Shown here: in pieces, positions 1,035 to 19,634 of the stretch
Position numbering within the stretch: the stretch's first letter is position 1
Layout of the letters: every line of letters starts with the position of its first letter
From: Rhizobium sp. Q54
Lineage (GTDB): Bacteria; Pseudomonadota; Alphaproteobacteria; SHVV01
NCBI GenBank assembly: GCA_945903685.1
Contig: CAMDOQ010000007.1
Location: 7,263 to 31,262, forward strand
Reading direction: 5' to 3'
DNA: 24,000 nt
Position numbers and translations under genes: made by a program
Notes under the pieces: model-generated
The model's input: the letters and a program-made list of their open reading frames with translations, nothing else
What the model was told of the DNA's origin: nothing
The model's database searches: none

Positions 1035-1228
1035 GACTCCCTCCGAAAAAGGCGCCGATTATAGGCAGCGCGAGCGCGGCTGCAACGATCCGTGATCGCC
1101 GTCACAGCTCGGTACCTTCTTCGCGGCGAGGCGGGCGATGCCTACCGTGGCCGGGGTCCTATGCTACACTTCGGTCCAACGCGCCGGTCATGATCGGGCG
1201 CGACGATCGTCCGTACGACGAGGGGTCG

Positions 1229-1975
1229 ATGAAAATCGGGGGAACGCCGCGCTACGCGGAGATCGCCCGCACTGGCAAGGTCAAGCCGGGGGCGCGGAGC
1301 GACGCGGCCGACAACGTCGAACGGTCGGCGTCGGGCGCTGCGTCGGCGGTCGCCGATACCATGTCGATCATGGGGGTGCCCGAGACCGAGCTCACCGCCA
1401 AGGTCCGCACCGCGTTGATGACGCTGATGCGCGAAGTCGAGGAGCTCCGGCGCGATCTCAACCGCACCCGCGCCCGTCTCGCCGAACTCGAACGCGAGGC
1501 CGACCAGGACACCCTGACCCCGCTCGCCAACCGGCGCGCGTTCGTGCGCGAACTGTCCAAGGTGATGTCGTTCACCGAGCGCTATGGCGGCGGCGCCAGC
1601 CTGATCTACTTCGACGTAAACAATCTGAAGATCATCAACGACACCCACGGCCACGCGGCCGGCGACGGCGCGCTGTTGAAGATCGCTGAGACGATCACCG
1701 AACAGATCCGCGAGTCCGACGTGGTCGGCCGCCTGGGCGGCGACGAGTTCGGCGTGATCCTCGCGCAGTCCGATGCCGACAAGGCGGTCGAGAAGGCCGA
1801 GTCCTTGGCTGATGCGATCGCCGCGGCGCCGTTCGAGTGGGAGGGAACGCCGATCAAGCTCGCTGTTGCGTTCGGCGTTCACACGTTCCGGCCGGGTGAC
1901 GACGCCAGTAAGGCGTTGGCCGAGGCCGACCGCGCCATGTACAAGCGCAAGCAGGCGATGAAGAACGGCAACTAG
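1229..1975 (+). CDS. Small cytosolic diguanylate cyclase (GGDEF domain) with an N-terminal coiled-coil/leucine-zipper segment
   Basis: The C-terminal half is a canonical GGDEF domain (NRRAF...YFDVNNLKIINDTHGHAAGD...RLGGDEFGVIL...ADRAMYKRK). An RxxD I-site (RESD) sits five residues upstream of GGDEF. I prefer the ATG at 1229 (GAGGGG SD 4 nt upstream) over the track start at 1190; both are in frame. Confidence 0.88.
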   Translation: MKIGGTPRYAEIARTGKVKPGARSDAADNVERSASGAASAVADTMSIMGVPETELTAKVRTALMTLMREVEELRRDLNRTRARLAELEREADQDTLTPLANRRAFVRELSKVMSFTERYGGGASLIYFDVNNLKIINDTHGHAAGDGALLKIAETITEQIRESDVVGRLGGDEFGVILAQSDADKAVEKAESLADAIAAAPFEWEGTPIKLAVAFGVHTFRPGDDASKALAEADRAMYKRKQAMKNGN

Positions 1976-6619: not shown

Positions 6620-7309
6620 TCAGGAGGTGCTCGGGGCGGGGCCGGGATCGGACGCGGGCGGCGCCTCCGCCGGCGTTGCCGCGGCGGCCTGGGCCGCCTG
6701 CGCCGCCGCCCGGGTCGCTAGCGCTTCGGCCTCGACGTCGGCTTGACGCTTGGCCGCGACCTTGGCGTCGCGGGCCTCCTGGTTGAGCTTGCGCCGCTTG
6801 GCCTTGGTGACGGCGCTGTCGAGCTCGGTCTGCGTGCACATCCCGAGCGAGACCGGGTCCTCGAGCTTGACGTTCGAGATGTTCCAGTGCGTCCGCTCGC
6901 GGATCGAGTTGATGGTCGACTTGGTGGTGCCGACCAGCTTGGCGACTTGGCCGTCGGTGAGCTCGGGGTGGTAGCGCAGGAGCCACGCGATCGTATTCGG
7001 CCGATCCTGGCGCTTGGCGACCGGGGTGTAGCGCGGACCCTTGGCCCGCGCGATCGGCTGCGGGATGTCGGCCTTGATCATGTTGAGTTTCCGCGTCTTG
7101 TCGGCCGCGCACGCGGCGATCTCGTCCGCGGTGAGGATTCCGGACGCGATCGGATCGTGGCCGACGATCCCGGTCGCGACCTCGCCGTCGGCGATGCCTT
7201 GGACCTCGAGGTGGTGCAGCCCGCAAAACTCGCCGATCTGCGGGAACGCGAGCGTGGTGTTTTCGATCAGCCAAACGGCCGTCGCTTTCGGCATCAAGGG
7301 CCTAGACAT
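6620..7309 (-). CDS. trcR: DUF1013-family protein (cell cycle transcriptional regulator TrcR family)
   Basis: 229 aa. The N-terminus MPKATAVWLIENTTLAFPQIGEFCGLHHLEVQGIADGEVATGIVGHDPI..G.LT.DEI is the highly conserved DUF1013 signature. The C-terminus is a Lys/Ala- then Ala/Pro-rich tail. GGAG SD lies 9 nt upstream of the ATG at 7309. Confidence 0.85.
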   Translation of the reverse strand: MSRPLMPKATAVWLIENTTLAFPQIGEFCGLHHLEVQGIADGEVATGIVGHDPIASGILTADEIAACAADKTRKLNMIKADIPQPIARAKGPRYTPVAKRQDRPNTIAWLLRYHPELTDGQVAKLVGTTKSTINSIRERTHWNISNVKLEDPVSLGMCTQTELDSAVTKAKRRKLNQEARDAKVAAKRQADVEAEALATRAAAQAAQAAAATPAEAPPASDPGPAPSTS

Positions 7310-11600: not shown

Positions 11601-13433
11601 GTGAGCGATCCATCGAACAGCCGCGCGGCGCCGACGGCCGCTAGCGCGAGCGAGCGCGCCAAGTCGCGCGACCTGGGCCAAATTCGCCACCTGTGGCCGT
11701 TCGTCAAGCCGCACGGGAGCGTGGTCTTGGGCGCGCTCGTCGCGCTTCTGGTCGCGGCCGGCGCGACCCTCGCGATCGGCCAGGCACTAAGGCGGGTGGT
11801 CGATTCCGGCTTCCAGGCCGACAACGCAGCTTTTCTCGACCAGTATTTCCTCGCGTTGTTCGGGGTCGTGGTCGTCCTCGCGGTGGCGACCTTCGCCCGC
11901 TTCTACTGCGTCTCGTGGTTGGGCGAGCGCGTGGTCGCGGCCGTCCGGAGTGCAGTCTACGACCGCGTCATCGGCCTCTCGCCCGCTTATTTCGAGACCG
12001 CGCGCACCGGCGAAATCCTCTCGCGCCTCACCACCGACACCGAGCAGATCCAGTCGGTGGTGGGATCGAGCGCTTCGGTCGCGCTCCGCAACGTCCTGCT
12101 CCTGATCGGCGGCACCGCGCTCCTGTTCGTGACCTCGGTCAAGCTGGCGCTGCTCATTCTCCTGATCGTGCCGCTGGTGGTAGTGCCGATCCTGGTCTTC
12201 GGCCGCAAGGTGCGCCGGCTCTCGCGCGCGAGCCTGGACCGCATCGCCGACGTCTCGGCTTACGCCAGCGAGACCCTGAACGCCGTTGAAACGGTGCAAG
12301 CGTTCGCGCACGAGGCCTATGACCGCCGCCGCTTCCGGGGCGCGGTCGAAGACGCATTCGGCGCCGCCGTCAAGCGCATCAATGCGCGCGCCTGGCTGAC
12401 CGCGCTCGTCATTCTTCTGATCTTCGGCGCGGTCGATGCGGTCATGTGGATCGGCGCCCGTGACGTTGCCGAGGCCCAGATCAGCGGTGGCACGCTCGCG
12501 GCGTTCGTGTTCTACGCGATCGTGGTGGCGGGTTCGGCCGGAGCGCTCTCGGAGGTCTATGGCGACTTCCAGCGCGCGGCCGGTGCCGCCGAGCGGCTGA
12601 TCGAACTCCTGCGCACGCCGATCGATATCCGGGCGCCGGCCCACCCGGCGCCGCTTGCCCTGCCGGCCAAGGGCGCAATCGCCTTCGAGCGCGTCGGTTT
12701 CCGTTACCCCTCGCGTCCCGATGCGCATGCGCTCGCCGACTTCGACCTGATGATCGCGCCGGGTGAGCGGGTGGCGCTGGTCGGACCGTCGGGCGCCGGC
12801 AAGTCGACAGTGTTCCGGATGCTGCTCCGCTTCCACGATCCGGAGACCGGCCGCATTACCTTCGATGGTATCGCGCTGCCCGATCTGGATCCGCAGGTCT
12901 TGCGGGGCGCGATCGGCGTGGTCGCGCAAGACGCGGCGATTTTCGCCGCGACCGCGATGGAGAACATCCGCTACGGCCGGCCGGCGGCGAGCGACGACGA
13001 CGTCCAAGCCGCGGCCGAGGCGGCGCAGGCGGCGGGCTTCATCGCCAGGCTGCCCGGAGGCTTCCACACCTTCTTGGGCGAGCGCGGTGTCCGCCTCTCG
13101 GGCGGACAACGCCAGCGGATCGCGATCGCGCGTGCGATCCTTCGCAATCCGGCGCTGCTGCTGCTCGATGAGGCGACCAGCGCGCTCGATTCCGAGAGCG
13201 AGCAAAAGGTCCAGGCCGCGCTCGAACCCCTGATGCGCGGTCGCACCACGCTCGTAATCGCGCACCGGCTGGCGACCGTGCTCGGTGCCGACCGCATCGT
13301 CGTCATCGATCAAGGCCGTATCGTCGCGCAAGGGAAACACGATCAGTTGATGGCCGAGGGTGGGCTCTACGCCCGGCTGGCGACGCTCCAGTTCAACATC
13401 GGCCAGCTCGCTCTGGGCCGCGCCGCGCAGTAG
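11601..13433 (+). CDS. ABC exporter, fused permease-ATPase half-transporter (ABCB type; Mdl1/ABCB10/MsbA-like)
   Basis: 610 aa. Six-helix TMD with the SRLTTDTEQIQ motif, Walker A GPSGAGKST, signature LSGGQRQRIAIARA, Walker B LLLLDEATSALD and H-loop VIAHRL. GTG start 22 nt after the cyaY stop; the start is less certain than the identity. Confidence 0.88.
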   Translation: MSDPSNSRAAPTAASASERAKSRDLGQIRHLWPFVKPHGSVVLGALVALLVAAGATLAIGQALRRVVDSGFQADNAAFLDQYFLALFGVVVVLAVATFARFYCVSWLGERVVAAVRSAVYDRVIGLSPAYFETARTGEILSRLTTDTEQIQSVVGSSASVALRNVLLLIGGTALLFVTSVKLALLILLIVPLVVVPILVFGRKVRRLSRASLDRIADVSAYASETLNAVETVQAFAHEAYDRRRFRGAVEDAFGAAVKRINARAWLTALVILLIFGAVDAVMWIGARDVAEAQISGGTLAAFVFYAIVVAGSAGALSEVYGDFQRAAGAAERLIELLRTPIDIRAPAHPAPLALPAKGAIAFERVGFRYPSRPDAHALADFDLMIAPGERVALVGPSGAGKSTVFRMLLRFHDPETGRITFDGIALPDLDPQVLRGAIGVVAQDAAIFAATAMENIRYGRPAASDDDVQAAAEAAQAAGFIARLPGGFHTFLGERGVRLSGGQRQRIAIARAILRNPALLLLDEATSALDSESEQKVQAALEPLMRGRTTLVIAHRLATVLGADRIVVIDQGRIVAQGKHDQLMAEGGLYARLATLQFNIGQLALGRAAQ

Positions 13434-13440
13434 CGCCGTA

Positions 13441-13476
13441 ACCCCCTCCCTACCCTCCCCCTCTCCGAGGGGGAGG
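13441..13476 (+). repeat. C-rich box + GC hairpin element (copy B1) downstream of the ABC exporter gene
   Basis: ACCCCCTCCCTACCC is followed by a 10-bp stem CCTCCCCCTC / GAGGGGGAGG with a 3-nt loop (13454-13476). Same layout as copies A and C, but both stem arms carry matching substitutions. Confidence 0.55.
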
Positions 13477-13493
13477 AGACAAGTAAATGAAGC

Positions 13494-13549
13494 TCCTCCC
13501 CCTGCGTCGCAGGGGGAGGACGCGAGCGCCGCGAGCGGGTGGGGGCCCC
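13494..13549 (-). repeat. GC hairpin + G-rich box (copy B2, inverted orientation, looser match)
   Basis: Perfect 12-bp stem TCCTCCCCCTGC-GTC-GCAGGGGGAGGA (13494-13520), then a 16-nt spacer and GGGTGGGGGCCCC (13537-13549). Read on the minus strand this is a C-rich box followed by a hairpin, i.e. forward orientation relative to the minus-strand MotB-like gene. Confidence 0.45.
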
Positions 13550-13708: not shown

Positions 13709-15025
13709 CTACCGCTCGGTGAGCTTCATCTCGATGCGGCGGTTGCGCCGGTAGGCGATCTCGTCGGTGCGGGGATCGAGCGGCTGAAACTCGCCGAACC
13801 CGGCGGCGGCGAGCCGCTTGGCCGGAATGCCCTGCGTCGTCAGGAAGCGCGTCACCGCAATCGCGCGCGCTGCCGAGAGCTCCCAGTTCGAGGGGAACTG
13901 CGCGGTCGCGATCGGACGGACGTCGGTGTGGCCGTCGATCCGGATCACCCACGGGATTTCTTCGGGAATACGCGGGCTGATTTCGCGGAGCGTGGCGGCG
14001 AGCGTCGCCATCTGCCCGCGCCCGGCTTCGCCCAGCTCGGCCGACCCGGTCTCGAACAGGACTTCGGACTGAAACACGAAACGGTCGCCGACGATCGTGA
14101 TATCGGGACGATCGCCCAGCACTTCGCGCAGCCGCCCGAAAAATTCGGAGCGGTACCGGGACAACTCCTCGACCCGCCGGGCGAGGGCGACGTTCAAGCG
14201 CTGCCCCAGCGCCTCGATCTGCGCCTTCTGGTCGACGTCCTTGACCTCAGAGGACTTGAGCGCGACTTCGAGCCGGGCAAGCTGACGGCGGAGCTCCGCG
14301 ATCTGGTCGTTCAGCGCCTTGACCCGGGTCTCGGACCGGGTCGAGGAGAACTGCTCGCTCGCGATCTCCTGGCGCGCGGCTTCGAGCTGGCGGCCGATCT
14401 CGGCCAAGCGAATCTCGCGCTTTTCGATTTCCTTCTGGGCGAGCGAGGTCTTCTCGGCTTCGCTCGCGAGCCGCGCTTCGAGCTGCCGGGTGCGATCGCG
14501 GGCCTGGGTCGCTTCGGCCGAGCGCTCGGCGACCTGTTGTTCGAGCTGCGCGCGCACGGCGCGCAGGGCGTCGATGTCGCGGCGCAAGCTCACGAGCTCG
14601 GCCAACTGCAGCTCGATCTTCTCCTTGTCGACCGCGATCGACTTCTGGAGCTGCGCCGCCTCGACCTCGGCCCGCTCGGCGCGGCCGGTGAGGGCGGAGA
14701 TCTGGGTGGTGAGGTCCTCGACCTTGAGCGTCAGCGTGTCGCGGTCCTTGGCCGATTCCTGGAGTGTTGCCGAGAGCTGGGCGACCGAGAGCCTGAGTTC
14801 GGCGTTGGACTGGCGTTCGAGCGAGAGCAGGTCGGACAACTCGGCGATCTGCTTGTCGAGCCGCACCAACGCCTCGTCGCGGCCGGTCAGCGCTTCGGCC
14901 AGGAAGTAGTGGCCGAACGTAAATACCACCAGCAGAAACGTGATTCCGAGCAGCAGCGTGCTCAAGGCATCGACGAACCCCGGCCAGATATCGACCGAAC
15001 GGTGCGCGCGCGCCTGCCTCGCCAT
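13709..15025 (-). CDS. MotB/TolR-like membrane protein with a long coiled-coil spacer and a C-terminal OmpA/MotB peptidoglycan-binding domain
   Basis: 438 aa. The N-terminus DIWPGFVDALSTLLLGITFLLVVF is a single TM helix with the conserved Asp, like the MotB plug/TM region. Residues ~46-290 are heptad-rich and Glu/Leu/Arg/Gln/Ala-rich. The C-terminus FETGSAEL...RIDGHTDVRP...SNWELSAARAIAV..FL...GI...RL.AAGFGE..P......AYRRNRRIE is OmpA-like. The AGGAG SD overlaps the stop codon of the upstream gene. Confidence 0.85.
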   Translation of the reverse strand: MARQARAHRSVDIWPGFVDALSTLLLGITFLLVVFTFGHYFLAEALTGRDEALVRLDKQIAELSDLLSLERQSNAELRLSVAQLSATLQESAKDRDTLTLKVEDLTTQISALTGRAERAEVEAAQLQKSIAVDKEKIELQLAELVSLRRDIDALRAVRAQLEQQVAERSAEATQARDRTRQLEARLASEAEKTSLAQKEIEKREIRLAEIGRQLEAARQEIASEQFSSTRSETRVKALNDQIAELRRQLARLEVALKSSEVKDVDQKAQIEALGQRLNVALARRVEELSRYRSEFFGRLREVLGDRPDITIVGDRFVFQSEVLFETGSAELGEAGRGQMATLAATLREISPRIPEEIPWVIRIDGHTDVRPIATAQFPSNWELSAARAIAVTRFLTTQGIPAKRLAAAGFGEFQPLDPRTDEIAYRRNRRIEMKLTER

Positions 15026-15035
15026 CGGAGCGCTC

Positions 15036-16184
15036 CTAGTGCTGGCGGCTGCTGTGCTCGATCGCGGTCGCGACGGTGCGGGCGAGAAGCTTGACCTCGC
15101 TCCGGAAGTCCTCGATCAGCTCTTTGCGGCCCATGCTGGTCTCTTCCAAGAGCCGCATCATGTAGACATCGAGATTCTTCAAGTGCGTGCGGCTGGCCGG
15201 GTCGAGCCCGCCGGCGGCGCGCTCGCTCGATTCGGCCAAGCGCTGCAGGAACGGCTTGATCTCGACCTGGGCTTCCGCCAGCCGGATCATCAGGTCCTGT
15301 TCGGCCCGCATCTGGTCGGACAAGGTCGAGAGCTTGTCGGCGAGCGTGAGCAGCGTCGTGTTGGCGGAGGCGCGGTTGTCTTCGCTCCGCGCCATGATGC
15401 GCCGGAGGTTTTCGAGGCTCTCGGCGGTCTGCTCGAGGAGCGCGCTGACGTAGGCTGGGACCGACTGGTCGCCATCGCCGAGGCCGCCCGAGGAGAGCCG
15501 CGTCACGCTCGCGAGCCACTCCTCGAGGTCGTTATAGAACCGGTTCTGGGCGTGGCCGGCCTGGAGATCGAGAAAGCCCACGATCAGCGATCCGGCGAGG
15601 CCGAACAGCGATGCCGAAAACGCGGTGCCCATCCCGGAGAGCGGCGCGCGCAGGCCGGCCTGGAGATCGCGGAACACGGTCTGAATGTCGCCACCGGCCG
15701 CGATCTGCAGCCGCCCGAGTGCGAGGCTGAGCGACCCCATGGTTTGGATGAGGCCCCAGAACGTTCCGAGCAGCCCCAAGAAGATGAGCAGGCCGATCAG
15801 GTAGCGCGCGGTTTCGCGGCCTTCGTCGAGCCGCGAGGAAATGGTGTCCAGCAGGCTCCGTAGCGAAGCCGTCGAGAGCGACATTTTCCCGGCACGCTCG
15901 CCCAGCATCGCTGCCATCGGTGCCAACAGCGTCGGCGGCTTCGGTACCGAAAGGCCCGGTTCGTTCCGCCGGTAGACCTCAATCCAGCGGACCTCGGGCG
16001 TCAGGCGGTGGACCTGGCGGAACACGTAGGCGACGCCGATCAGGAACGTGCCGAAGATCAACCCGTTCAGCGCGATGTTGGCGGCGAACGCCTTCCACAC
16101 CGTGTCCGAGAGCAAGACGAGAACGACAATGACCACGAGCATGAACGCGGCCATCCGCATCAAGTATTTTTGCGGGCGGGTCAT
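15036..16184 (-). CDS. MotA/TolQ/ExbB-family proton-channel protein with a ~175-aa helical C-terminal tail
   Basis: 382 aa. Four predicted TM helices (about 10-26, 36-56, 127-148, 183-207). Family signature LIFLGLLGTFWGLIQTM ... LSGMGTAFSASLFGLAGSLIVGF. The tail (208-382) is Leu/Glu/Arg/Ala-rich and predicted helical. GAGGA SD 7 nt upstream of the ATG at 16184. Confidence 0.85.
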   Translation of the reverse strand: MTRPQKYLMRMAAFMLVVIVVLVLLSDTVWKAFAANIALNGLIFGTFLIGVAYVFRQVHRLTPEVRWIEVYRRNEPGLSVPKPPTLLAPMAAMLGERAGKMSLSTASLRSLLDTISSRLDEGRETARYLIGLLIFLGLLGTFWGLIQTMGSLSLALGRLQIAAGGDIQTVFRDLQAGLRAPLSGMGTAFSASLFGLAGSLIVGFLDLQAGHAQNRFYNDLEEWLASVTRLSSGGLGDGDQSVPAYVSALLEQTAESLENLRRIMARSEDNRASANTTLLTLADKLSTLSDQMRAEQDLMIRLAEAQVEIKPFLQRLAESSERAAGGLDPASRTHLKNLDVYMMRLLEETSMGRKELIEDFRSEVKLLARTVATAIEHSSRQH

Positions 16185-16238
16185 GGGCGATCCTCTTTTT
16201 CGGTGGGGCGCGATCCGGTGCCGCCGGCCGGCGGCGAC

Positions 16239-17573
16239 TTACGGAGCGAGCGAGATGATGTCGACGCGATCCTGAACGCCATCGGGCGGCGCGCCGAGGG
16301 CGCGGACGTCGATGCGCGTGCCTTTGATGCCTTGCTCGATCAGATAGGAGCGCACTTCGAGCGCACGCAGGAGCGAAAGCCGGCGCGCGCCCGAGGGCGA
16401 TTCGGCGCTGCCGCCGCTAGCGTAGCCCTGCACTTGGAGGCGAGTTTCGTTGCTCTCGATCCGTTTCGCCAGCGCGCGAAGCTGCTCGGCATCGGCGCCC
16501 GAAAATTTGGCGGCCCCAACCGGGAACGCCATCCGCGCCACCACCGGCCCATCCGGCGAGCGCATCGCGGGCGGGAGTGCGGCGGTCTGGGCTGGGCGCG
16601 CCGGCGGTTCCGGTGCCGCGGCGGGTGGGGCGGTTGTCGCCGCCGGGGGCGGAGTGAGCGTCGTCGGCGGAGCGGAGGTCACGACCGGCGGTGGTTGAAT
16701 CGTCGGTGCTCGCGGTGCGAGCGCCTGCGCGGGTGGGGTTTGTGTCGCCGGTGCGGTGCGAGGCGGTTGCGCTACGGTGGGCGGCGCCTGAAGTGCCGCA
16801 GTCGGCGGCGGCTGCAGGGCCGTGCTCGGCGGGGTTTGCGGCGCCGCGCTCGGCGCGGGTTGGGGCCGGGGCGCGGCCGGTGCTGTGGTCGGCGGTAGAG
16901 CGGGCGCGGTCGTGGATGTCGGTGCGGACGCAGGCGTGCGAGCGGGCGGGGTCCGTTCGGTCGCGGCCGGCGGGCGCGGTGCCGGCGGTGGTTGCAACGC
17001 CGCTGTCTCCTTGGCCGGCTCCTTCGGAGCCTCGCGGCGGGTGACCGGCTCCGGCCGTGCCGGCGGCAATCGGGGCGGTGTCACTTCGGGCTCGGGCTTG
17101 CGGGCGACTTGGGTCGGTGCCGGCGGCGGTTGACGGGGCGTCGAGACCTGAATAGCCGCACCGGTTCCGACTTCGGCGGGCAATAGCGTGGCGGGGACCC
17201 GGGGCCCGGTCGTGCCCGGTGGTGTCGCCGCCGTCGGAGCTGCAGACTTGGGCGCGCTCGGGGCGTCGCGGTCCTTGACCGTGCGCCGTCCACGCGGTTC
17301 GGGCGGAATATTGAGGGCGGTGATGTCGACGTCGGGGGCGCGCCGCTGCCCGACCCGGGTCGCGGTTCCCGGCATTAACAGCCGGCTTATGCCGCGCGCC
17401 GCCGGCGCTTCGGTGCCGGGCATGTTGACTTCGATCGGCGGTCGGCCGCTGCCGCCGATTACGATCGTTTCCTGCGCGCTGGCTGGGTCCAACGCGCAAA
17501 GCAACGCGGCAGCGGCGGCTCCGGCGAGCAACACGCGCTTAAAATGCGGAGCAGTCAGGGCGAATCGCCTCAT
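16239..17573 (-). CDS. Secreted or membrane-anchored Pro/Ala/Thr-rich protein with a divergent C-terminal OmpA-like domain
   Basis: N-terminus MRRFALTAPHFKRVLLAGAAAAALLCALDPASA|QE is signal-peptide-like. A low-complexity P/A/T-rich region of about 235 aa follows. The C-terminus FPVGAAKFSGADAEQLRALAKRI.....RLQVQGYASGG...PSGARRLSLLRALEVRSYLIEQGI...RIDVRALG follows the OmpA_C pattern with non-canonical residues (GYAS instead of GHTD). I prefer the ATG at 17573 over the track's TTG at 17582. Confidence 0.7.
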   Translation of the reverse strand: MRRFALTAPHFKRVLLAGAAAAALLCALDPASAQETIVIGGSGRPPIEVNMPGTEAPAARGISRLLMPGTATRVGQRRAPDVDITALNIPPEPRGRRTVKDRDAPSAPKSAAPTAATPPGTTGPRVPATLLPAEVGTGAAIQVSTPRQPPPAPTQVARKPEPEVTPPRLPPARPEPVTRREAPKEPAKETAALQPPPAPRPPAATERTPPARTPASAPTSTTAPALPPTTAPAAPRPQPAPSAAPQTPPSTALQPPPTAALQAPPTVAQPPRTAPATQTPPAQALAPRAPTIQPPPVVTSAPPTTLTPPPAATTAPPAAAPEPPARPAQTAALPPAMRSPDGPVVARMAFPVGAAKFSGADAEQLRALAKRIESNETRLQVQGYASGGSAESPSGARRLSLLRALEVRSYLIEQGIKGTRIDVRALGAPPDGVQDRVDIISLAP

Positions 17574-17582
17574 CGCGGGCAA

Positions 17583-17611
17583 CGATAGCCTAGGCGCGTT
17601 TTAATGGACAA
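17583..17611 (-). promoter_or_regulatory. Candidate promoter for the OmpA-like/MotA-like/MotB-like operon (-35 TTGTCC, 17-bp spacer, -10 CTATCG)
   Basis: Hexamers read on the minus strand in a locally AT-richer 101-nt gap after suhB. The hexamer pair resembles the cyaY candidate. It would give a very short or absent leader before the ATG at 17573, which fits the lack of an SD there. By eye only. Confidence 0.2.
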
Positions 17612-19235: not shown

Positions 19236-19634
19236 TCAGCGTGCAGCCGTGCGACGCGTCGGGACCAGGAGCGACAGGGGCTCGGCCTTGCCGCGAAACG
19301 CGACCGGCCCGAGCGCCTCGAACGCGAACGCGGCTTTCGCCGTCTCCGGGAGATGATCGACCAGGGCCTGCGAAATCAGCGCCGGCCGCTCGGATTTGCG
19401 GCAGGTCTCTTCGATGCGGGCGACGGTGTTGATCGTGTCGCCGAGGTAGACGATCGCCTGCTTGTCGCTTCCCATCTCGCCAACCACCACCGTGCCGATG
19501 TGGAGCGCGCCGCGGAACGACGGGCGGACGCGATAGTGTGCGTCATAGCCGTCGGCGCGCCGCGCGAGTTCGTCGACAATGTCGAAGTAGCAGCGCAGGC
19601 AAAGCCCTTCGCGCAGGCCGTCGTCCGGGCGCCA
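19236..19634 (-). pseudogene. 5'-truncated class III adenylate/guanylate cyclase catalytic-domain remnant (C-terminal ~132 codons only)
   Basis: The C-terminal part of the 419-aa track ORF reads ...FRGALHIGTVVVGEMGSDKQAIVYLGDTINTVARIEETCRKSERPALISQALVDHL, the distal half of a class III cyclase domain (R.G.H.G.VV.G..G......Y.GDT.N.A.R.E). The proximal half with the two metal-binding Asp motifs is absent. Upstream, the frame runs antisense through the RidA gene with junk composition. The only in-frame starts near the homology boundary are TTG codons. Confidence 0.55.

What the first reader, a model, noticed from the sequence alone, without database searches (positions are those of the whole stretch)
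13709..17573. Orphan Ton/Tol/Mot-like three-gene envelope operon of unassigned function
Three co-oriented minus-strand genes lie close together, with gaps of 54 nt and 10 nt. The AGGAG SD of the last gene overlaps the stop of the middle one. Gene 1 (16239-17573) has an N-terminal hydrophobic signal or anchor, a ~235-aa Pro/Ala/Thr-rich rod and a divergent OmpA-like domain. Gene 2 (15036-16184) is a four-TM MotA/TolQ/ExbB-family channel subunit with a ~175-aa helical tail. Gene 3 (13709-15025) is a MotB/TolR/ExbD-like subunit with an Asp-bearing TM helix (FVDALSTLLLG), a ~245-aa coiled coil and a canonical peptidoglycan-binding domain. A Pro-rich periplasm-spanning protein plus a channel subunit plus an Asp-bearing plug subunit parallels TonB-ExbB-ExbD and TolA-TolQ-TolR, i.e. 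5:2-type ion-driven motors. The window contains no flagellar, Tol-Pal, TonB-dependent receptor, gliding or Zorya effector gene. The neighbours are housekeeping genes (suhB-efp upstream, an ABC exporter downstream). I cannot place the trio in a characterised system from memory.
Basis: partly seen in the sequence, partly recalled or inferred. Interest (0 to 1): 0.7.

Follow-up and report, generated by a model that had tools for sequence, protein, structure and literature searches.

The report
Uncharacterised Zorya-like envelope ion motor
Two tightly linked genes, conserved at the same chromosomal spot across many Alphaproteobacteria, appear to encode a proton-driven rotary membrane motor anchored to the cell wall; its nearest relative is the Zorya phage-defence motor, but it sits among housekeeping genes and I found no function reported for it.

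Summary
Three co-oriented minus-strand genes lie at the stated coordinates, with 54-nt and 10-nt gaps and an AGGAG overlapping the middle gene's stop.

Genes 2 and 3 make a credible A/B pair of the 5:2 ion-motor superfamily:
- The gene 2 model matches only ExbB, TolQ and ZorA structures.
- Gene 2's channel helices are the most conserved part of the family.
- Gene 3 carries an invariant TM aspartate, a ~255-aa coiled coil and a canonical OmpA/MotB peptidoglycan-binding domain.

The pair is adjacent in 79/80 related loci. It holds the same suhB-flanked position from Rhodospirillales to Sinorhizobium meliloti.

The interpretation needs three corrections:
- The closest family is ZorA (44/44 diverse members hit ZorA profiles). 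It is not Ton, Tol or Mot. It is also not Zorya: there are no effector genes, the tail is short, and it is syntenic with housekeeping genes.
- Gene 1 is not a TonB/TolA analogue. It has a cleavable signal peptide and a degenerate OmpA-like domain, is missing from about 25% of loci, and does not co-vary in length with gene 3.
- The conserved unit is therefore a pair, not a trio.

No paper naming or characterising it was found. The S. meliloti orthologues tolerate transposon insertions. It is a new architectural variant of a known motor kind, with unknown physiological output.

The parts
16239..17573 (-). g1: secreted Pro/Ala/Thr-rich protein with a degenerate OmpA-like C-terminal domain (444 aa). 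It is an accessory partner, present in about 75% of related loci.
   Evidence: ORF. Pfam OmpA 2.4e-10. Present upstream of g2 in 51/68 loci with room for it. No PADLOC, TonB or TolA hit.
17475..17573 (-). g1 signal peptide (aa 1-33, MRRFALTAPHFKRVLLAGAAAAALLCALDPASA|QE). Predicted signal peptidase I cleavage, not a lipobox and not a TM anchor.
   Evidence: Hydropathy and sequence. Orthologues show the same n-h-c pattern, mostly ending AxA|Q. A few have lipobox-like sites, such as VTAC, LAAC and LGAC. Heuristic only; no SignalP was available.
16539..17243 (-). g1 Pro/Ala/Thr-rich low-complexity linker (aa 111-345). It contains a 24-nt x 3.2 tandem repeat at 16780-16855.
   Evidence: Composition is 31% P, 22% A and 14% T. 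TRF result. Mature length varies from 131 to 481 aa among orthologues.
16242..16538 (-). g1 OmpA-like domain (aa 346-444). It keeps the LSxxRA arginine, but AYA/GYAS replaces the canonical GHTD.
   Evidence: Family consensus compared with g3.
15036..16184 (-). g2: A subunit of the motor (382 aa). It is ZorA-like, has four predicted TM helices and a cytoplasmic helical tail.
16011..16163 (-). g2 TM1-TM2 (aa 8-58), predicted peripheral lipid-facing helices with low conservation.
   Evidence: Hydropathy. Conservation is 0.44-0.55.
15804..16010 (-). g2 cytoplasmic loop (aa 59-127), about 68 aa and much shorter than a MotA torque domain. W67 and R118 are nearly invariant.
   Evidence: AF2 confidence is low here.
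15564..15803 (-). g2 channel core: TM3 (FLGLLGTFWGL, Thr141 invariant), a periplasmic loop and TM4 (GMGTAFSASLFGLAGSL, Ser190/Ser192 at 90% or more).
   Evidence: This is the most conserved region, 0.84-0.86 across 97 representatives at 33-57% identity. ZorA Thr147/Ser184 contact ZorB Asp26 (PMC11946911).
15039..15563 (-). g2 cytoplasmic helical tail (aa 208-382). A conserved base motif (RFYNDLEEWL) is followed by a helix-turn-helix of about 140 aa.
   Evidence: AF2 helices 167-230, 242-322 and 329-381. Heptad z = 3.5. Length is conserved but sequence is not, 0.37-0.39. The module is tandemly duplicated in 557-614-aa relatives.
15026..15038 (-). g2/g3 junction: the TAG stop of g2 overlaps the AGGAG Shine-Dalgarno of g3, with a 10-nt gap, implying translational coupling.
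   Evidence: Sequence. The median g2-g3 gap in 79 loci is 12 nt.
13709..15025 (-). g3: B subunit (438 aa), a member of NCBIfam PRK09039 'peptidoglycan-binding protein'.
   Evidence: NF006543 7.2e-134, 447 bits against a cut-off of 305. Lies downstream of g2 on the same strand in 79/80 loci.
14891..15025 (-). g3 Arg-rich cytoplasmic N-terminus, TM helix with Asp19 (codon 14969-14971) in the motif WPGFVDALSTLL, and a conserved post-TM segment (FLAEALTGRDEAL).
   Evidence: The WPG[FYW]VD motif is present in 78/79 orthologues: 74 by regex plus 4 by eye. The exception, L030, is truncated.
14117..14890 (-). g3 periplasmic coiled coil (aa 46-303), about 38 nm if a continuous helix.
   Evidence: Heptad z = 7.4 and no proline between residues 16 and 306. 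AF2 helix 14-303 with breaks at 91-94 and 225-229. Hits to SMC, filament and crescentin profiles. Total g3 length is 346-661 aa in orthologues.
13712..14116 (-). g3 OmpA/MotB-type peptidoglycan-binding domain with the canonical GHTD...NWELSxARA...RRNRRIE motifs.
   Evidence: Pfam OmpA 1.3e-15. PDB MotS 4.2e-17, also MotB and PomB. MotD 6.7e-31. ZorB3 1.2e-23. Family consensus.
13494..13520 (-). Terminator-like hairpin (12-bp stem, 9 G-C pairs) about 190 nt downstream of g3, between g3 and the convergent ABC exporter.

Best explanation
g2 and g3 encode the A and B subunits of a peptidoglycan-anchored, ion-driven (probably proton-driven) motor of the MotAB/ExbBD/TolQR/ZorAB superfamily. By homology the stoichiometry is A5B2.

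Shown:
- g2 has the ExbB/TolQ/ZorA fold, and its TM3/TM4 channel helices are highly conserved.
- g3 has a single TM helix with an invariant Asp, a long coiled coil and a canonical OmpA/MotB peptidoglycan-binding domain.
- The two genes are translationally coupled and almost always adjacent.
- The family is closer to ZorA than to MotA, ExbB or TolQ.
- The pair is vertically inherited at a housekeeping locus across at least Rhodospirillales, Acetobacterales, Kiloniellales and Hyphomicrobiales.

Inferred:
- Five g2 subunits surround two g3 TM helices.
- Protons pass from the periplasm via g2 Thr141 and Ser190/192 to g3 Asp19.
- With g3 fixed to the wall through its OmpA domains, the g2 ring rotates around it.
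- The moving output is the g2 cytoplasmic helical tail, predicted to project about 12-15 nm. The g3 coiled coil acts as a long, length-variable tether to the wall, not as a spacer of fixed length.

The physiological role is not shown. My best guess is a housekeeping function in envelope surveillance or homeostasis that couples the state of the wall or periplasm to the cytoplasm, working like the ZorAB core but without nuclease effectors. g1 is a lineage-variable periplasmic accessory that may associate with the wall or outer membrane. It is not a TonB/TolA-type force transducer.
For: Fold:
- All 50 best Foldseek PDB matches of the g2 model are ExbB, TolQ or ZorA chains, with probability mostly above 0.9, TM-score up to 0.53 on the target and best E-value 3.6e-3.

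Channel:
- TM3 and TM4 conservation is 0.84-0.86, against 0.37-0.55 for most other regions and 0.63 for the tail base, across 97 representatives at 33-57% identity. L136, G137, G140, T141, G144 and L145 are invariant in the 44-member alignment.
- The equivalent ZorA Thr147 and Ser184 contact ZorB Asp26 (PMC11946911).

B subunit:
- WPG[FYW]VD with the TM Asp occurs in 78/79 orthologues.
- OmpA 1.3e-15, MotS/MotB/PomB peptidoglycan-binding domains down to 4e-17, and an intact GHTD/LSxARA/RRNRRIE motif.

Operon:
- The SD overlaps the stop.
- g3 follows g2 in 79/80 loci with a median gap of 12 nt.

ZorA affinity:
- PADLOC ZorA1 and ZorA3 models hit 44/44 diverse members (best 1e-15), while Pfam MotA_ExbB hits 21/44 (best 1e-8).
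- NCBIfam ZorA_2 and ZorA_4 each hit 24/44, TolQ 2/44, and MotA and ExbB none.

Housekeeping and vertical inheritance:
- suhB lies upstream in 46/61 loci, and the same suhB-A-B-convergent-ABC order occurs in S. meliloti.
- G+C content is uniform.
- No match in 50,697 phage records.
- The family has 573 clusters at 50% identity with E <= 1e-30.

Not flagellar, Tol or Ton:
- S. meliloti has a canonical motA (SMc03022) in its flagellar cluster.
- Agrobacterium has tolQRAB-pal at Atu3713-3717.

Tail as a modular coiled coil:
- The ~140-aa tail unit is tandemly duplicated in the 557-614-aa relatives.

Weak envelope link:
- A ChvI-bound fragment maps inside SMc03993, the inferred S. meliloti g2 orthologue (PMC3687685).
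Against: - No stoichiometry, ion flux or rotation was tested.
- The g2 model is only moderately confident (mean pLDDT 67.7, pTM 0.44), and the Foldseek E-values are modest (3.6e-3 and weaker).
- The Pfam MotA_ExbB hit of the window protein is just below the gathering cut-off. A profile of the family finds no PDB sequence at E < 0.2.
- The g3 coiled coil is about 38 nm here and varies several-fold in orthologues. That is far longer than the ~9 nm inner-membrane-to-wall distance quoted for E. coli, so the stator geometry is unclear. The coil might itself be the working part.
- No cytoplasmic partner for the tail is encoded nearby.
- The S. meliloti orthologues are missing from two essential or low-insertion gene lists and from the NCR247 sensitivity tables. 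No phenotype supports any role.
- The ChvI fragment is intragenic and comes from an in vitro screen.
- Locus tags SMc03992 and SMc03993 were assigned by position, not by sequence.
Confidence: 0.6

Rival explanations
1. First reader's model. The trio is a Ton/Tol-like trans-envelope force transducer. g1 is the Pro-rich periplasm-spanning TonB/TolA analogue, energised by the g2/g3 motor to act on the outer membrane or wall.
For: - g1 is co-oriented and only 54 nt upstream of g2.
- g1 has a long Pro-rich region like TonB and TolA.
- g1 accompanies the pair in 51/68 loci.
- ExbB and TolQ are among the best structural matches of g2.
Against: - g1 begins with a signal peptide and an AxA|Q cleavage site, here and in orthologues. 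It could not stay in the inner membrane next to g2, as TonB and TolA do.
- g1 gives no TonB_C or TolA domain hit at E <= 1.
- g1 is absent in about 25% of loci, including Defluviicoccus and S. meliloti.
- g1 and g3 lengths do not co-vary.
- g3 has a MotB-type OmpA domain, not an ExbD/TolR fold.
- No TonB-dependent receptor, TolB, Pal or CpoB gene is nearby.
Confidence: 0.1
2. A reduced or cryptic Zorya-type anti-phage system. ZorAB-like proteins would act alone, for example by depolarising the membrane on envelope breach, or with effectors encoded elsewhere.
For: - The best profile matches of g2 are ZorA1 and ZorA3, and of g3 is ZorB3.
- g2 has a ZorA-style C-terminal helical tail.
- g3 has a peptidoglycan-binding domain like ZorB.
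Against: - No ZorC, D, E, F or G-like gene is present. g1 has no PADLOC hit, and no other gene recurs next to the pair.
- The tail is about 175 aa, whereas ZorA tails are long in all Zorya types (about 70 nm in E. coli), and that length was suggested to be functionally important.
- Scores are far below the NCBIfam ZorA cut-offs.
- The locus is syntenic between housekeeping genes across orders rather than patchy or island-borne.
- G+C content is uniform, and there are no phage or true plasmid copies.
Confidence: 0.08
3. An alternative flagellar stator, as many automatic annotations say ('flagellar motor protein MotA', 'chemotaxis protein MotB').
For: - Database names.
- The g3 peptidoglycan-binding domain is most similar to the MotS, MotB, PomB and MotD domains.
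- g2 has four predicted TM helices like MotA.
Against: - No NCBIfam MotA model hits any of 44 family members.
- The TM2-TM3 cytoplasmic loop is about 68 aa and poorly conserved, so no MotA-type torque domain was detected.
- There is no MotB_plug hit.
- No flagellar genes lie in the window or the syntenic loci.
- S. meliloti has its canonical motA elsewhere.
- From general knowledge (not tested here), several carriers such as Defluviicoccus and Crenalkalicoccus are described as non-motile cocci.
- The C-terminal tail would sit in the position where MotA meets FliG. This is inference.
Confidence: 0.03
4. A non-rotary structural tether. g3 would be an inner-membrane-to-wall coiled-coil anchor that sets or stabilises envelope architecture. 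g2 would be a membrane scaffold or chaperone, and the Asp would be a relic.
For: - Most of g3's mass is coiled coil plus a wall-binding domain.
- The coil length is highly variable, as for structural spacers.
- The pair is non-essential in S. meliloti.
Against: - The most conserved residues of the whole system are the ion-pathway ones: g2 FLGLLGT, TM4 Ser/Gly and the g3 TM Asp. This is unexpected for a relic.
- The A and B genes never separate.
- The g2 tail length is conserved.
Confidence: 0.12

Closest known systems
ZorA-ZorB, the membrane motor core of the Zorya anti-phage system (E. coli ZorA5B2, PDB 8qyd; PMC11946911)
   Same: - This is the best profile match for g2: ZorA1 and ZorA3 hit 44/44 family members, and NCBIfam ZorA_2 and ZorA_4 hit 24/44.
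- The A subunit has a C-terminal cytoplasmic helical tail.
- A conserved Thr on one inner helix and Ser on the other sit opposite a B-subunit Asp.
- The B subunit has an OmpA-type peptidoglycan-binding domain (ZorB3 1.2e-23).
- The A and B genes are adjacent.
   Different: - No ZorC, D, E, F or G effector genes are present.
- The tail is about 175 aa (predicted 12-15 nm), against about 70 nm in E. coli ZorA.
- g2 has four predicted TM helices against three in ZorA.
- g3 inserts a 150-470-aa coiled coil between the TM helix and the wall-binding domain, which ZorB lacks.
- g3 has a conserved post-TM segment, whereas ZorB has no plug.
- The locus is a vertically inherited housekeeping locus, not a defence island.
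- Scores are far below the curated ZorA cut-offs.
Flagellar stators MotAB / PomAB / MotPS
   Same: - The B subunit has the MotB-like motif around the TM Asp (W..[FY][VA]D) and the most similar peptidoglycan-binding domain (MotS 4e-17, MotD 7e-31).
- The A subunit has four predicted TM helices.
- The inferred logic is the same: B fixed to the wall, A rotating around it.
   Different: - No MotA torque-generating cytoplasmic domain was detected, and no MotA model hits.
- There is no MotB_plug hit.
- The linker is a coiled coil of about 255 aa instead of a short one.
- The A subunit has an extra C-terminal tail.
- There is no flagellar gene context.
ExbB-ExbD-TonB and TolQ-TolR-TolA
   Same: - These are the best structural matches for the g2 TM core.
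- The GLLGT motif on the inner helix is shared.
- An upstream Pro-rich periplasmic protein (g1) superficially recalls TonB and TolA.
   Different: - ExbD and TolR lack an OmpA domain and a coiled coil.
- ExbB and TolQ have three TM helices and no long tail.
- g1 is secreted rather than membrane-anchored and has no TonB_C or TolA domain.
- No receptor, TolB or Pal genes are nearby.
- Canonical Tol-Pal exists separately in related Rhizobiales.
NCBIfam PRK09039 'peptidoglycan-binding protein' (NF006542-NF006546)
   Same: g3 is a member: 447 bits against a cut-off of 305 for NF006543. The S. meliloti orthologue carries the same PGAP name.
   Different: The family name describes only the C-terminal domain. 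No function, partner or motor role is attached to it. The window protein has about 90 extra coiled-coil residues relative to the 350-position model.

Membership tests
5:2 ion-driven motor superfamily (MotAB/ExbBD/TolQR/ZorAB) | A subunit with the MotA/ExbB/TolQ fold | tested here: met
   The 50 best Foldseek PDB matches are all ExbB, TolQ or ZorA. Pfam MotA_ExbB is borderline for the window protein (22.5 against 22.9 bits) and hits 21/44 family members.
5:2 ion-driven motor superfamily (MotAB/ExbBD/TolQR/ZorAB) | B subunit with one N-terminal TM helix carrying a conserved Asp | tested here: met
   Asp19 lies in WPGFVDAL. The motif is present in 78/79 orthologues.
5:2 ion-driven motor superfamily (MotAB/ExbBD/TolQR/ZorAB) | Conserved polar residues (Thr/Ser) on the two inner A helices facing the Asp | tested here: met
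   Thr141 is invariant, and Ser190 and Ser192 are conserved at 90% or more. Their equivalence to ZorA Thr147 and Ser184 is inferred from motif position, not from a complex structure.
5:2 ion-driven motor superfamily (MotAB/ExbBD/TolQR/ZorAB) | Adjacent, co-transcribed A and B genes | tested here: met
   The gap is 10 nt with the SD over the stop. The genes are adjacent in 79/80 loci.
5:2 ion-driven motor superfamily (MotAB/ExbBD/TolQR/ZorAB) | A5B2 stoichiometry and ion-driven rotation | not testable with these tools
   Only monomer prediction was available. This needs AF-Multimer/AF3, cryo-EM and functional assays.
Zorya anti-phage system | ZorA and ZorB scoring above the curated family thresholds | tested here: not met
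   NCBIfam ZorA_4 scores 13 bits against a cut-off of 500, and ZorA_2 12 bits against 100. PADLOC hits (2e-12 for g2, 1e-23 for g3) show relatedness only.
Zorya anti-phage system | Adjacent effector genes (ZorC+ZorD, ZorE, or ZorF+ZorG) | tested here: not met
   g1 has no PADLOC hit. The neighbours are suhB, efp and an ABC exporter. No recurrent extra gene appears in 80 loci.
Zorya anti-phage system | Long ZorA cytoplasmic tail (about 70 nm in E. coli; long in all types) | tested here: not met
   The tail is about 175 aa. Most family representatives are about 380 aa in total.
Zorya anti-phage system | Anti-phage activity | not testable with these tools
   This needs phage challenge assays.
Ton system (TonB-ExbB-ExbD) | TonB: N-terminal inner-membrane anchor, Pro-rich spacer and C-terminal TonB_C domain | tested here: not met
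   g1 has a signal peptide with an AxA cleavage site. Only an OmpA hit was found, with no TonB_C at E <= 1.
Ton system (TonB-ExbB-ExbD) | ExbD-type periplasmic domain on the B subunit | tested here: not met
   g3 carries a coiled coil plus an OmpA domain. No ExbD/TolR family hit was found.
Tol-Pal system | tolQ-tolR-tolA-tolB-pal (with or without cpoB and ybgC) gene set | tested here: not met
   No TolA, TolB or Pal gene is in the window. TolQ models hit only 2/44 family members. Canonical Tol-Pal exists separately in Agrobacterium and S. meliloti.
Flagellar stator MotAB | MotA with a large TM2-TM3 cytoplasmic torque-generating domain | tested here: not met
   The loop is about 68 aa. No NCBIfam MotA model hits any of 44 members.
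Flagellar stator MotAB | MotB TM/plug region (Pfam MotB_plug) | tested here: not met
   No PF13677 hit at E <= 1. A different conserved post-TM motif (FLxxALSGRDxAL) is present, and its function is unknown.
Flagellar stator MotAB | OmpA-like peptidoglycan-binding domain on B | tested here: met
NCBIfam PRK09039 peptidoglycan-binding protein | Full-length score above the curated cut-off | tested here: met
   NF006543 scores 447 bits against 305, and NF006545 403 bits against 372.

The most novel reading that the evidence does not exclude
The pair is a housekeeping sister, or the ancestor, of the Zorya motor. It would be a wall-anchored rotary sensor that Alphaproteobacteria inherit vertically. 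It would report envelope or peptidoglycan perturbation to the cytoplasm through a short rotating tail bundle. Its tail module can be tandemly duplicated, which suggests how the very long ZorA tails could have arisen. Its B subunit, a MotB-like TM helix joined to a 20-70 nm coiled-coil tether and an OmpA domain, would be an architecture I found described for no known 5:2 motor.
Probability: 0.2. Interest if true: 0.8.

Novelty: new variant of a known kind. Interest (0 to 1): 0.6.

Why it matters
Every characterised 5:2 ion motor drives a distinct process: flagellar rotation, TonB-dependent import, outer-membrane constriction, gliding and type IX secretion, or phage defence.

This pair would add a branch with these properties:
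- It is conserved at one chromosomal position across several orders of Alphaproteobacteria, including plant symbionts with good genetics such as S. meliloti and Azospirillum.
- It is more similar to the Zorya motor than to any other curated motor family tested.
- It has an architecture I found in no described motor: a short ZorA-like tail on A, and a very long coiled coil between the TM Asp and the wall-binding domain on B.

It gives a tractable, non-essential system for two questions. What does a ZorAB-type motor do when no effector is attached? Where did Zorya come from?

It also flags a widespread mis-annotation. Many database entries call these genes 'flagellar motor protein MotA' and 'chemotaxis protein MotB'.

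Tried and rejected
Literature:
- Ten full-text searches found no named or characterised system. Terms covered the family name PRK09039, accession numbers, locus tags, and descriptors such as MotAB-like, stator-like and Zorya plus housekeeping.
- One search was badly designed and uninformative.
- The MotAB evolution paper and the TolA/TonB evolution paper do not describe this family.
- The pair is not among the S. meliloti Rgs proteins.
- The R. rubrum curvature paper matched only through its reference list.

Sequence-to-structure searches:
- phmmer and a family profile against PDB sequences found nothing meaningful for g2.

Unavailable fold libraries:

Ruler hypothesis:
- The idea that the g1 linker and the g3 coil co-vary in length was rejected (Spearman 0.09).

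Search for another partner gene:
- Downstream of g3 only the convergent ABC exporter or an MFS transporter recurs. Loci lacking g1 show unrelated upstream genes.

Taxonomic spread:
- Cluster look-ups and a profile search returned mostly unnamed metagenomic proteins. Presence or absence in Caulobacterales, Rhodobacterales, Sphingomonadales and Rickettsiales remains unknown.

Structure of g3:
- The single-sequence AF2 model was low confidence in the OmpA domain and added little.

Other checks:
- Rfam and tRNA scans of the window were empty.
- The Agrobacterium ChvG-ChvI supplement lists only canonical tol-pal genes.
- I considered that g2 helix 1 might be a cleaved signal peptide, which would give a 3-TM ZorA/ExbB-like mature protein. 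I rejected this as unlikely because the -1 position of the putative AFx site is not conserved.

Full report
OBSERVATION. The intergenic gaps are 54 nt and 10 nt. The AGGAG that serves g3 overlaps the TAG stop of g2 (CTAGGAGCGCTCCGATG). G+C content is uniform across the window at 0.66-0.73, so nothing suggests a recently acquired island. No tRNA or Rfam family lies in the window.

The remaining genes in the window are housekeeping genes. They are purE, a GGDEF protein, two acyl-CoA-synthetase-like genes, TrcR, a Zn-dependent dehydrogenase, a Cys/Met PLP enzyme, an alpha/beta hydrolase, a convergent ABC exporter, suhB, efp, thiE, class I aldolase, GAPDH and transketolase.

ANATOMY OF g2 (A SUBUNIT). 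Hydropathy gives four TM segments: 8-26, 38-58, 128-149 and 187-207. Basic residues lie at the N-terminus and after TM2, which fits an N-in, C-in topology. Pfam MotA_ExbB matches at 1e-4, which is 22.5 bits and just under the 22.9-bit cut-off.

An AlphaFold2 model built from 62 homologues has mean pLDDT 67.7, rising to 75-88 in the TM helices. It shows long TM3 and TM4 helices running into the cytoplasm, a disordered hinge at 231-241, and a helix-turn-helix tail at 242-322 and 329-381. Foldseek against the PDB returns only ExbB, TolQ and ZorA chains among its best 50 matches. Probability is mostly above 0.9, but E-values are modest at 3.6e-3 and weaker.

At sequence level the family is too divergent for PDB searches, whether with the single protein or with a profile.

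I compared 97 representatives at 33-57% identity. The TM3 and TM4 core stands out at 0.84-0.86 mean top-residue frequency, with the motifs FLGLLGTFWGL and GMGTAFSASLFGLAGSL. Most other regions score 0.37-0.55 and the tail base 0.63. Leu136, Gly137, Gly140, Thr141, Gly144, Leu145, Phe189, Gly195 and Leu196 are invariant in a 44-member alignment. The tail keeps its length (most members are about 380 aa) but not its sequence (0.37-0.39). It also shows heptad periodicity (z = 3.5). This is how a structural coiled coil behaves.

ANATOMY OF g3 (B SUBUNIT). It has four parts:
- A 13-residue Arg-rich cytoplasmic N-terminus.
- A TM helix with Asp19 in the motif WPGFVDALSTLL.
- A nearly uninterrupted helix to residue 303. 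There is no proline between residues 16 and 306, the heptad z is 7.4, and AF2 predicts a helix from 14 to 303 with breaks at 91-94 and 225-229.
- A canonical OmpA/MotB domain. It matches Pfam at 1.3e-15, and the MotS, MotB and PomB domains in the PDB down to 4e-17. The GHTD...NWELSxARA...RRNRRIE motif is intact.

g3 is a bona fide member of NCBIfam PRK09039 'peptidoglycan-binding protein', scoring 447 bits against a cut-off of 305.

In 79 orthologues the WPG[FYW]VD motif with the TM Asp is present in all but one, and the exception is a truncated gene. Total length ranges from 346 to 661 aa, so the coil varies several-fold in length. As a continuous helix the coil here would be about 38 nm. The inner-membrane-to-wall distance quoted for E. 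coli is about 9 nm (PMC11946911). The coil is therefore a long tether or arm, not a perpendicular spacer of fixed length. This last point is inference.

ANATOMY OF g1. Residues 1-33 form a classic signal peptide ending ALDPASA|QE. Orthologues show the same pattern, usually ending ...AxA|Q. In about half (24 of 48 complete orthologues) a short V-x-V-D-L-S-V-L-like strand motif follows. A few lineages have lipobox-like sites instead.

A Pro/Ala/Thr-rich linker follows. It is 31% Pro, contains a 24-nt x 3.2 repeat, and gives a mature length of 131-481 aa among orthologues.

The last part is an OmpA-like domain (2.4e-10). Family-wide, this domain has AYA/GYAS where canonical domains have GHTD, although it keeps the LSxxRA arginine. 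From general knowledge of OmpA-like domains, that aspartate helps bind the diaminopimelate of peptidoglycan. Wall binding by g1 is therefore uncertain.

No TonB, TolA or PADLOC model matches g1.

CONSERVATION AND CONTEXT. A scan of one genome per species found at least 594 loci. The best 80 are from Rhodospirillales (Azospirillum, Nitrospirillum, Thalassospira, Defluviicoccus and others), Acetobacterales, Kiloniellales and Dongiaceae.

Counts across these 80 loci:
- g3 follows g2 on the same strand in 79, with a median gap of 12 nt.
- g1 is present in 51 of 68 loci with room for it.
- suhB is upstream in 46 of 61, and efp in 45 of 61.
- The convergent ABC exporter is present in 19 of 65.

No other gene recurs.

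S. meliloti has the same order: thiE2, sel1, suhB, a 'MotA/TolQ/ExbB proton channel family protein' (368 aa), a 'peptidoglycan-binding protein' (342 aa) and a convergent ABC exporter. It has no g1.

The family comprises 573 clusters at 50% identity with E <= 1e-30. There are no phage copies. The only 'plasmid' hits are rhizobial chromosome-sized records labelled as plasmids. The pair is therefore an old, vertically inherited core unit, and g1 is a lineage-variable accessory.

WHICH KNOWN FAMILY IS CLOSEST. Two independent libraries agree.
- In PADLOC, ZorA1 and ZorA3 models hit all 44 diverse members (best 1e-15). Pfam MotA_ExbB hits only 21 of 44 (best 1e-8).
- In NCBIfam, ZorA_2 and ZorA_4 each hit 24 of 44, TolQ hits 2 of 44, and MotA and ExbB hit none.
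- The g3 domain hits ZorB3 at 1e-23 and MotD at 7e-31.

The system still fails the tests for being Zorya:
- Its scores are far below the curated cut-offs.
- It has no effector genes.
- Its tail is about 175 aa, against the ~70 nm tail of E. coli ZorA. The Zorya paper reports long tails in all Zorya types and suggests that length matters.
- It sits at a housekeeping, syntenic location.

It also fails the Ton, Tol and flagellar-stator tests (see the membership table). Related Rhizobiales have a canonical motA and tol-pal elsewhere.

MECHANISM.
Shown:
- A MotA/ExbB-fold protein and an Asp-bearing, wall-binding partner are co-encoded.
- Selection has been strongest on the residues that form the ion pathway in homologous motors.

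Inferred by homology with MotAB and ZorAB (PMC11946911):
- The complex is A5B2.
- Protons pass g2 Thr141 and Ser190/192 to g3 Asp19.
- With g3 held by the wall, the g2 ring and its tail bundle turn.

Further inferences:
- The conserved RFYNDLEEWL segment at the tail base and the Arg-rich g3 N-terminus may interact. The ZorB N-terminus contacts the ZorA tail in the same way.
- The conserved segment after the g3 TM helix (FLxxALSGRDxAL) may gate the channel as a plug does. It does not match MotB_plug.

The output and physiological role are unknown. My preferred guess is envelope surveillance or homeostasis signalled through the tail.

The only experimental hints are weak:
- A ChvI-bound DNA fragment at 2991422-2991677 lies inside SMc03993 (PMC3687685). 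I assign SMc03993 to the g2 orthologue by position, between the ABC gene SMc03991 and suhB SMc03994.
- SMc03992 and SMc03993 are absent from an essential-gene list and from a low-insertion list in two Tn-seq studies. They therefore seem dispensable in laboratory media.

A MODULAR TAIL. The 557-614-aa members of the family carry a tandem duplication of the ~140-aa tail unit. For example, P0303 matches g2 residues 239-376 twice. This shows the tail can lengthen by module duplication. It is a plausible route to ZorA-like long tails, and it supports the view that the tail is a length-tunable structural element.

VERDICT.
An orphan 5:2-type motor is correct. The Ton/Tol-like trio with g1 as transducer is not.
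- The system is a conserved but uncharacterised ZorAB-like pair with a new B-subunit architecture, which makes it a new variant of a known kind.
- Confidence that it is a wall-anchored ion-driven A/B motor is about 0.8.
- Confidence in the full statement, including the tail as output, is about 0.6.
- Confidence in any specific physiological role is low.

Noticed in passing
P0151, P0181, P0193, P0243, P0303, P0306 (relatives of g2, 574-614 aa): A minority of family members carry a tandem duplication of the ~140-aa tail module. g2 residues 239-380 match twice, and a third partial copy lies between them. The cytoplasmic tail can therefore lengthen modularly.
   Followed up: partly
window 17583-17611 (minus strand): TTGTCC-N17-CTATCG lies 9 nt upstream of the g1 ATG and resembles the alphaproteobacterial promoter consensus. 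g1 has no visible Shine-Dalgarno, so its mRNA might be leaderless or nearly so. The tool's sigma-70 scan did not call this site, so it rests on consensus resemblance only.
   Followed up: partly
window 13453-13520: Two G+C-rich hairpins with near-identical arms (TCCTCCCCCT...AGGGGGAGGA, and CTCCTCCCCCCTCGGAGAGGGGGAGGG) lie between the convergent g3 and the ABC exporter. They could be a bidirectional terminator or copies of a small repeated element.
   Followed up: no
window 19236-19460 (minus strand): A fragment matches only the C-terminal part of a class III adenylate/guanylate cyclase domain. The Pfam match covers positions 106-175 of 183, at E = 4e-4 and below the cut-off. It lies between efp and thiE and is possibly a gene remnant. 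Relatives have an unrelated small gene there (L081).
   Followed up: partly
window 6620-7309 (minus strand): A strong match to TrcR, a transcriptional cell-cycle regulator family of Alphaproteobacteria (1.7e-61).
   Followed up: no
window 1190-1975 (plus strand): A GGDEF diguanylate cyclase domain protein (2e-36) lies next to purE.
   Followed up: no
L084 4430-5575 (S. meliloti SMc03995): A secreted sel1-repeat protein lies between thiE2 and suhB, just upstream of the S. meliloti pair. It scored as essential in Tn-seq, and its function was only guessed by the authors (PMC5929573). The window has no counterpart.
   Followed up: no
window 11601-13433 (plus strand) and L084 9056-10870: The convergent fused TMD-NBD ABC exporter keeps its position next to g3 from this window to S. 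meliloti (SMc03991) and in 19 of 65 related loci. It had low transposon counts in one S. meliloti data set. Whether this is more than inherited synteny is unknown.
   Followed up: partly
database names of P0002, P0017, P0130, P0137 and others: Many public records name these proteins 'flagellar motor protein MotA' or 'chemotaxis protein MotB'. The evidence here does not support these names.
   Followed up: yes
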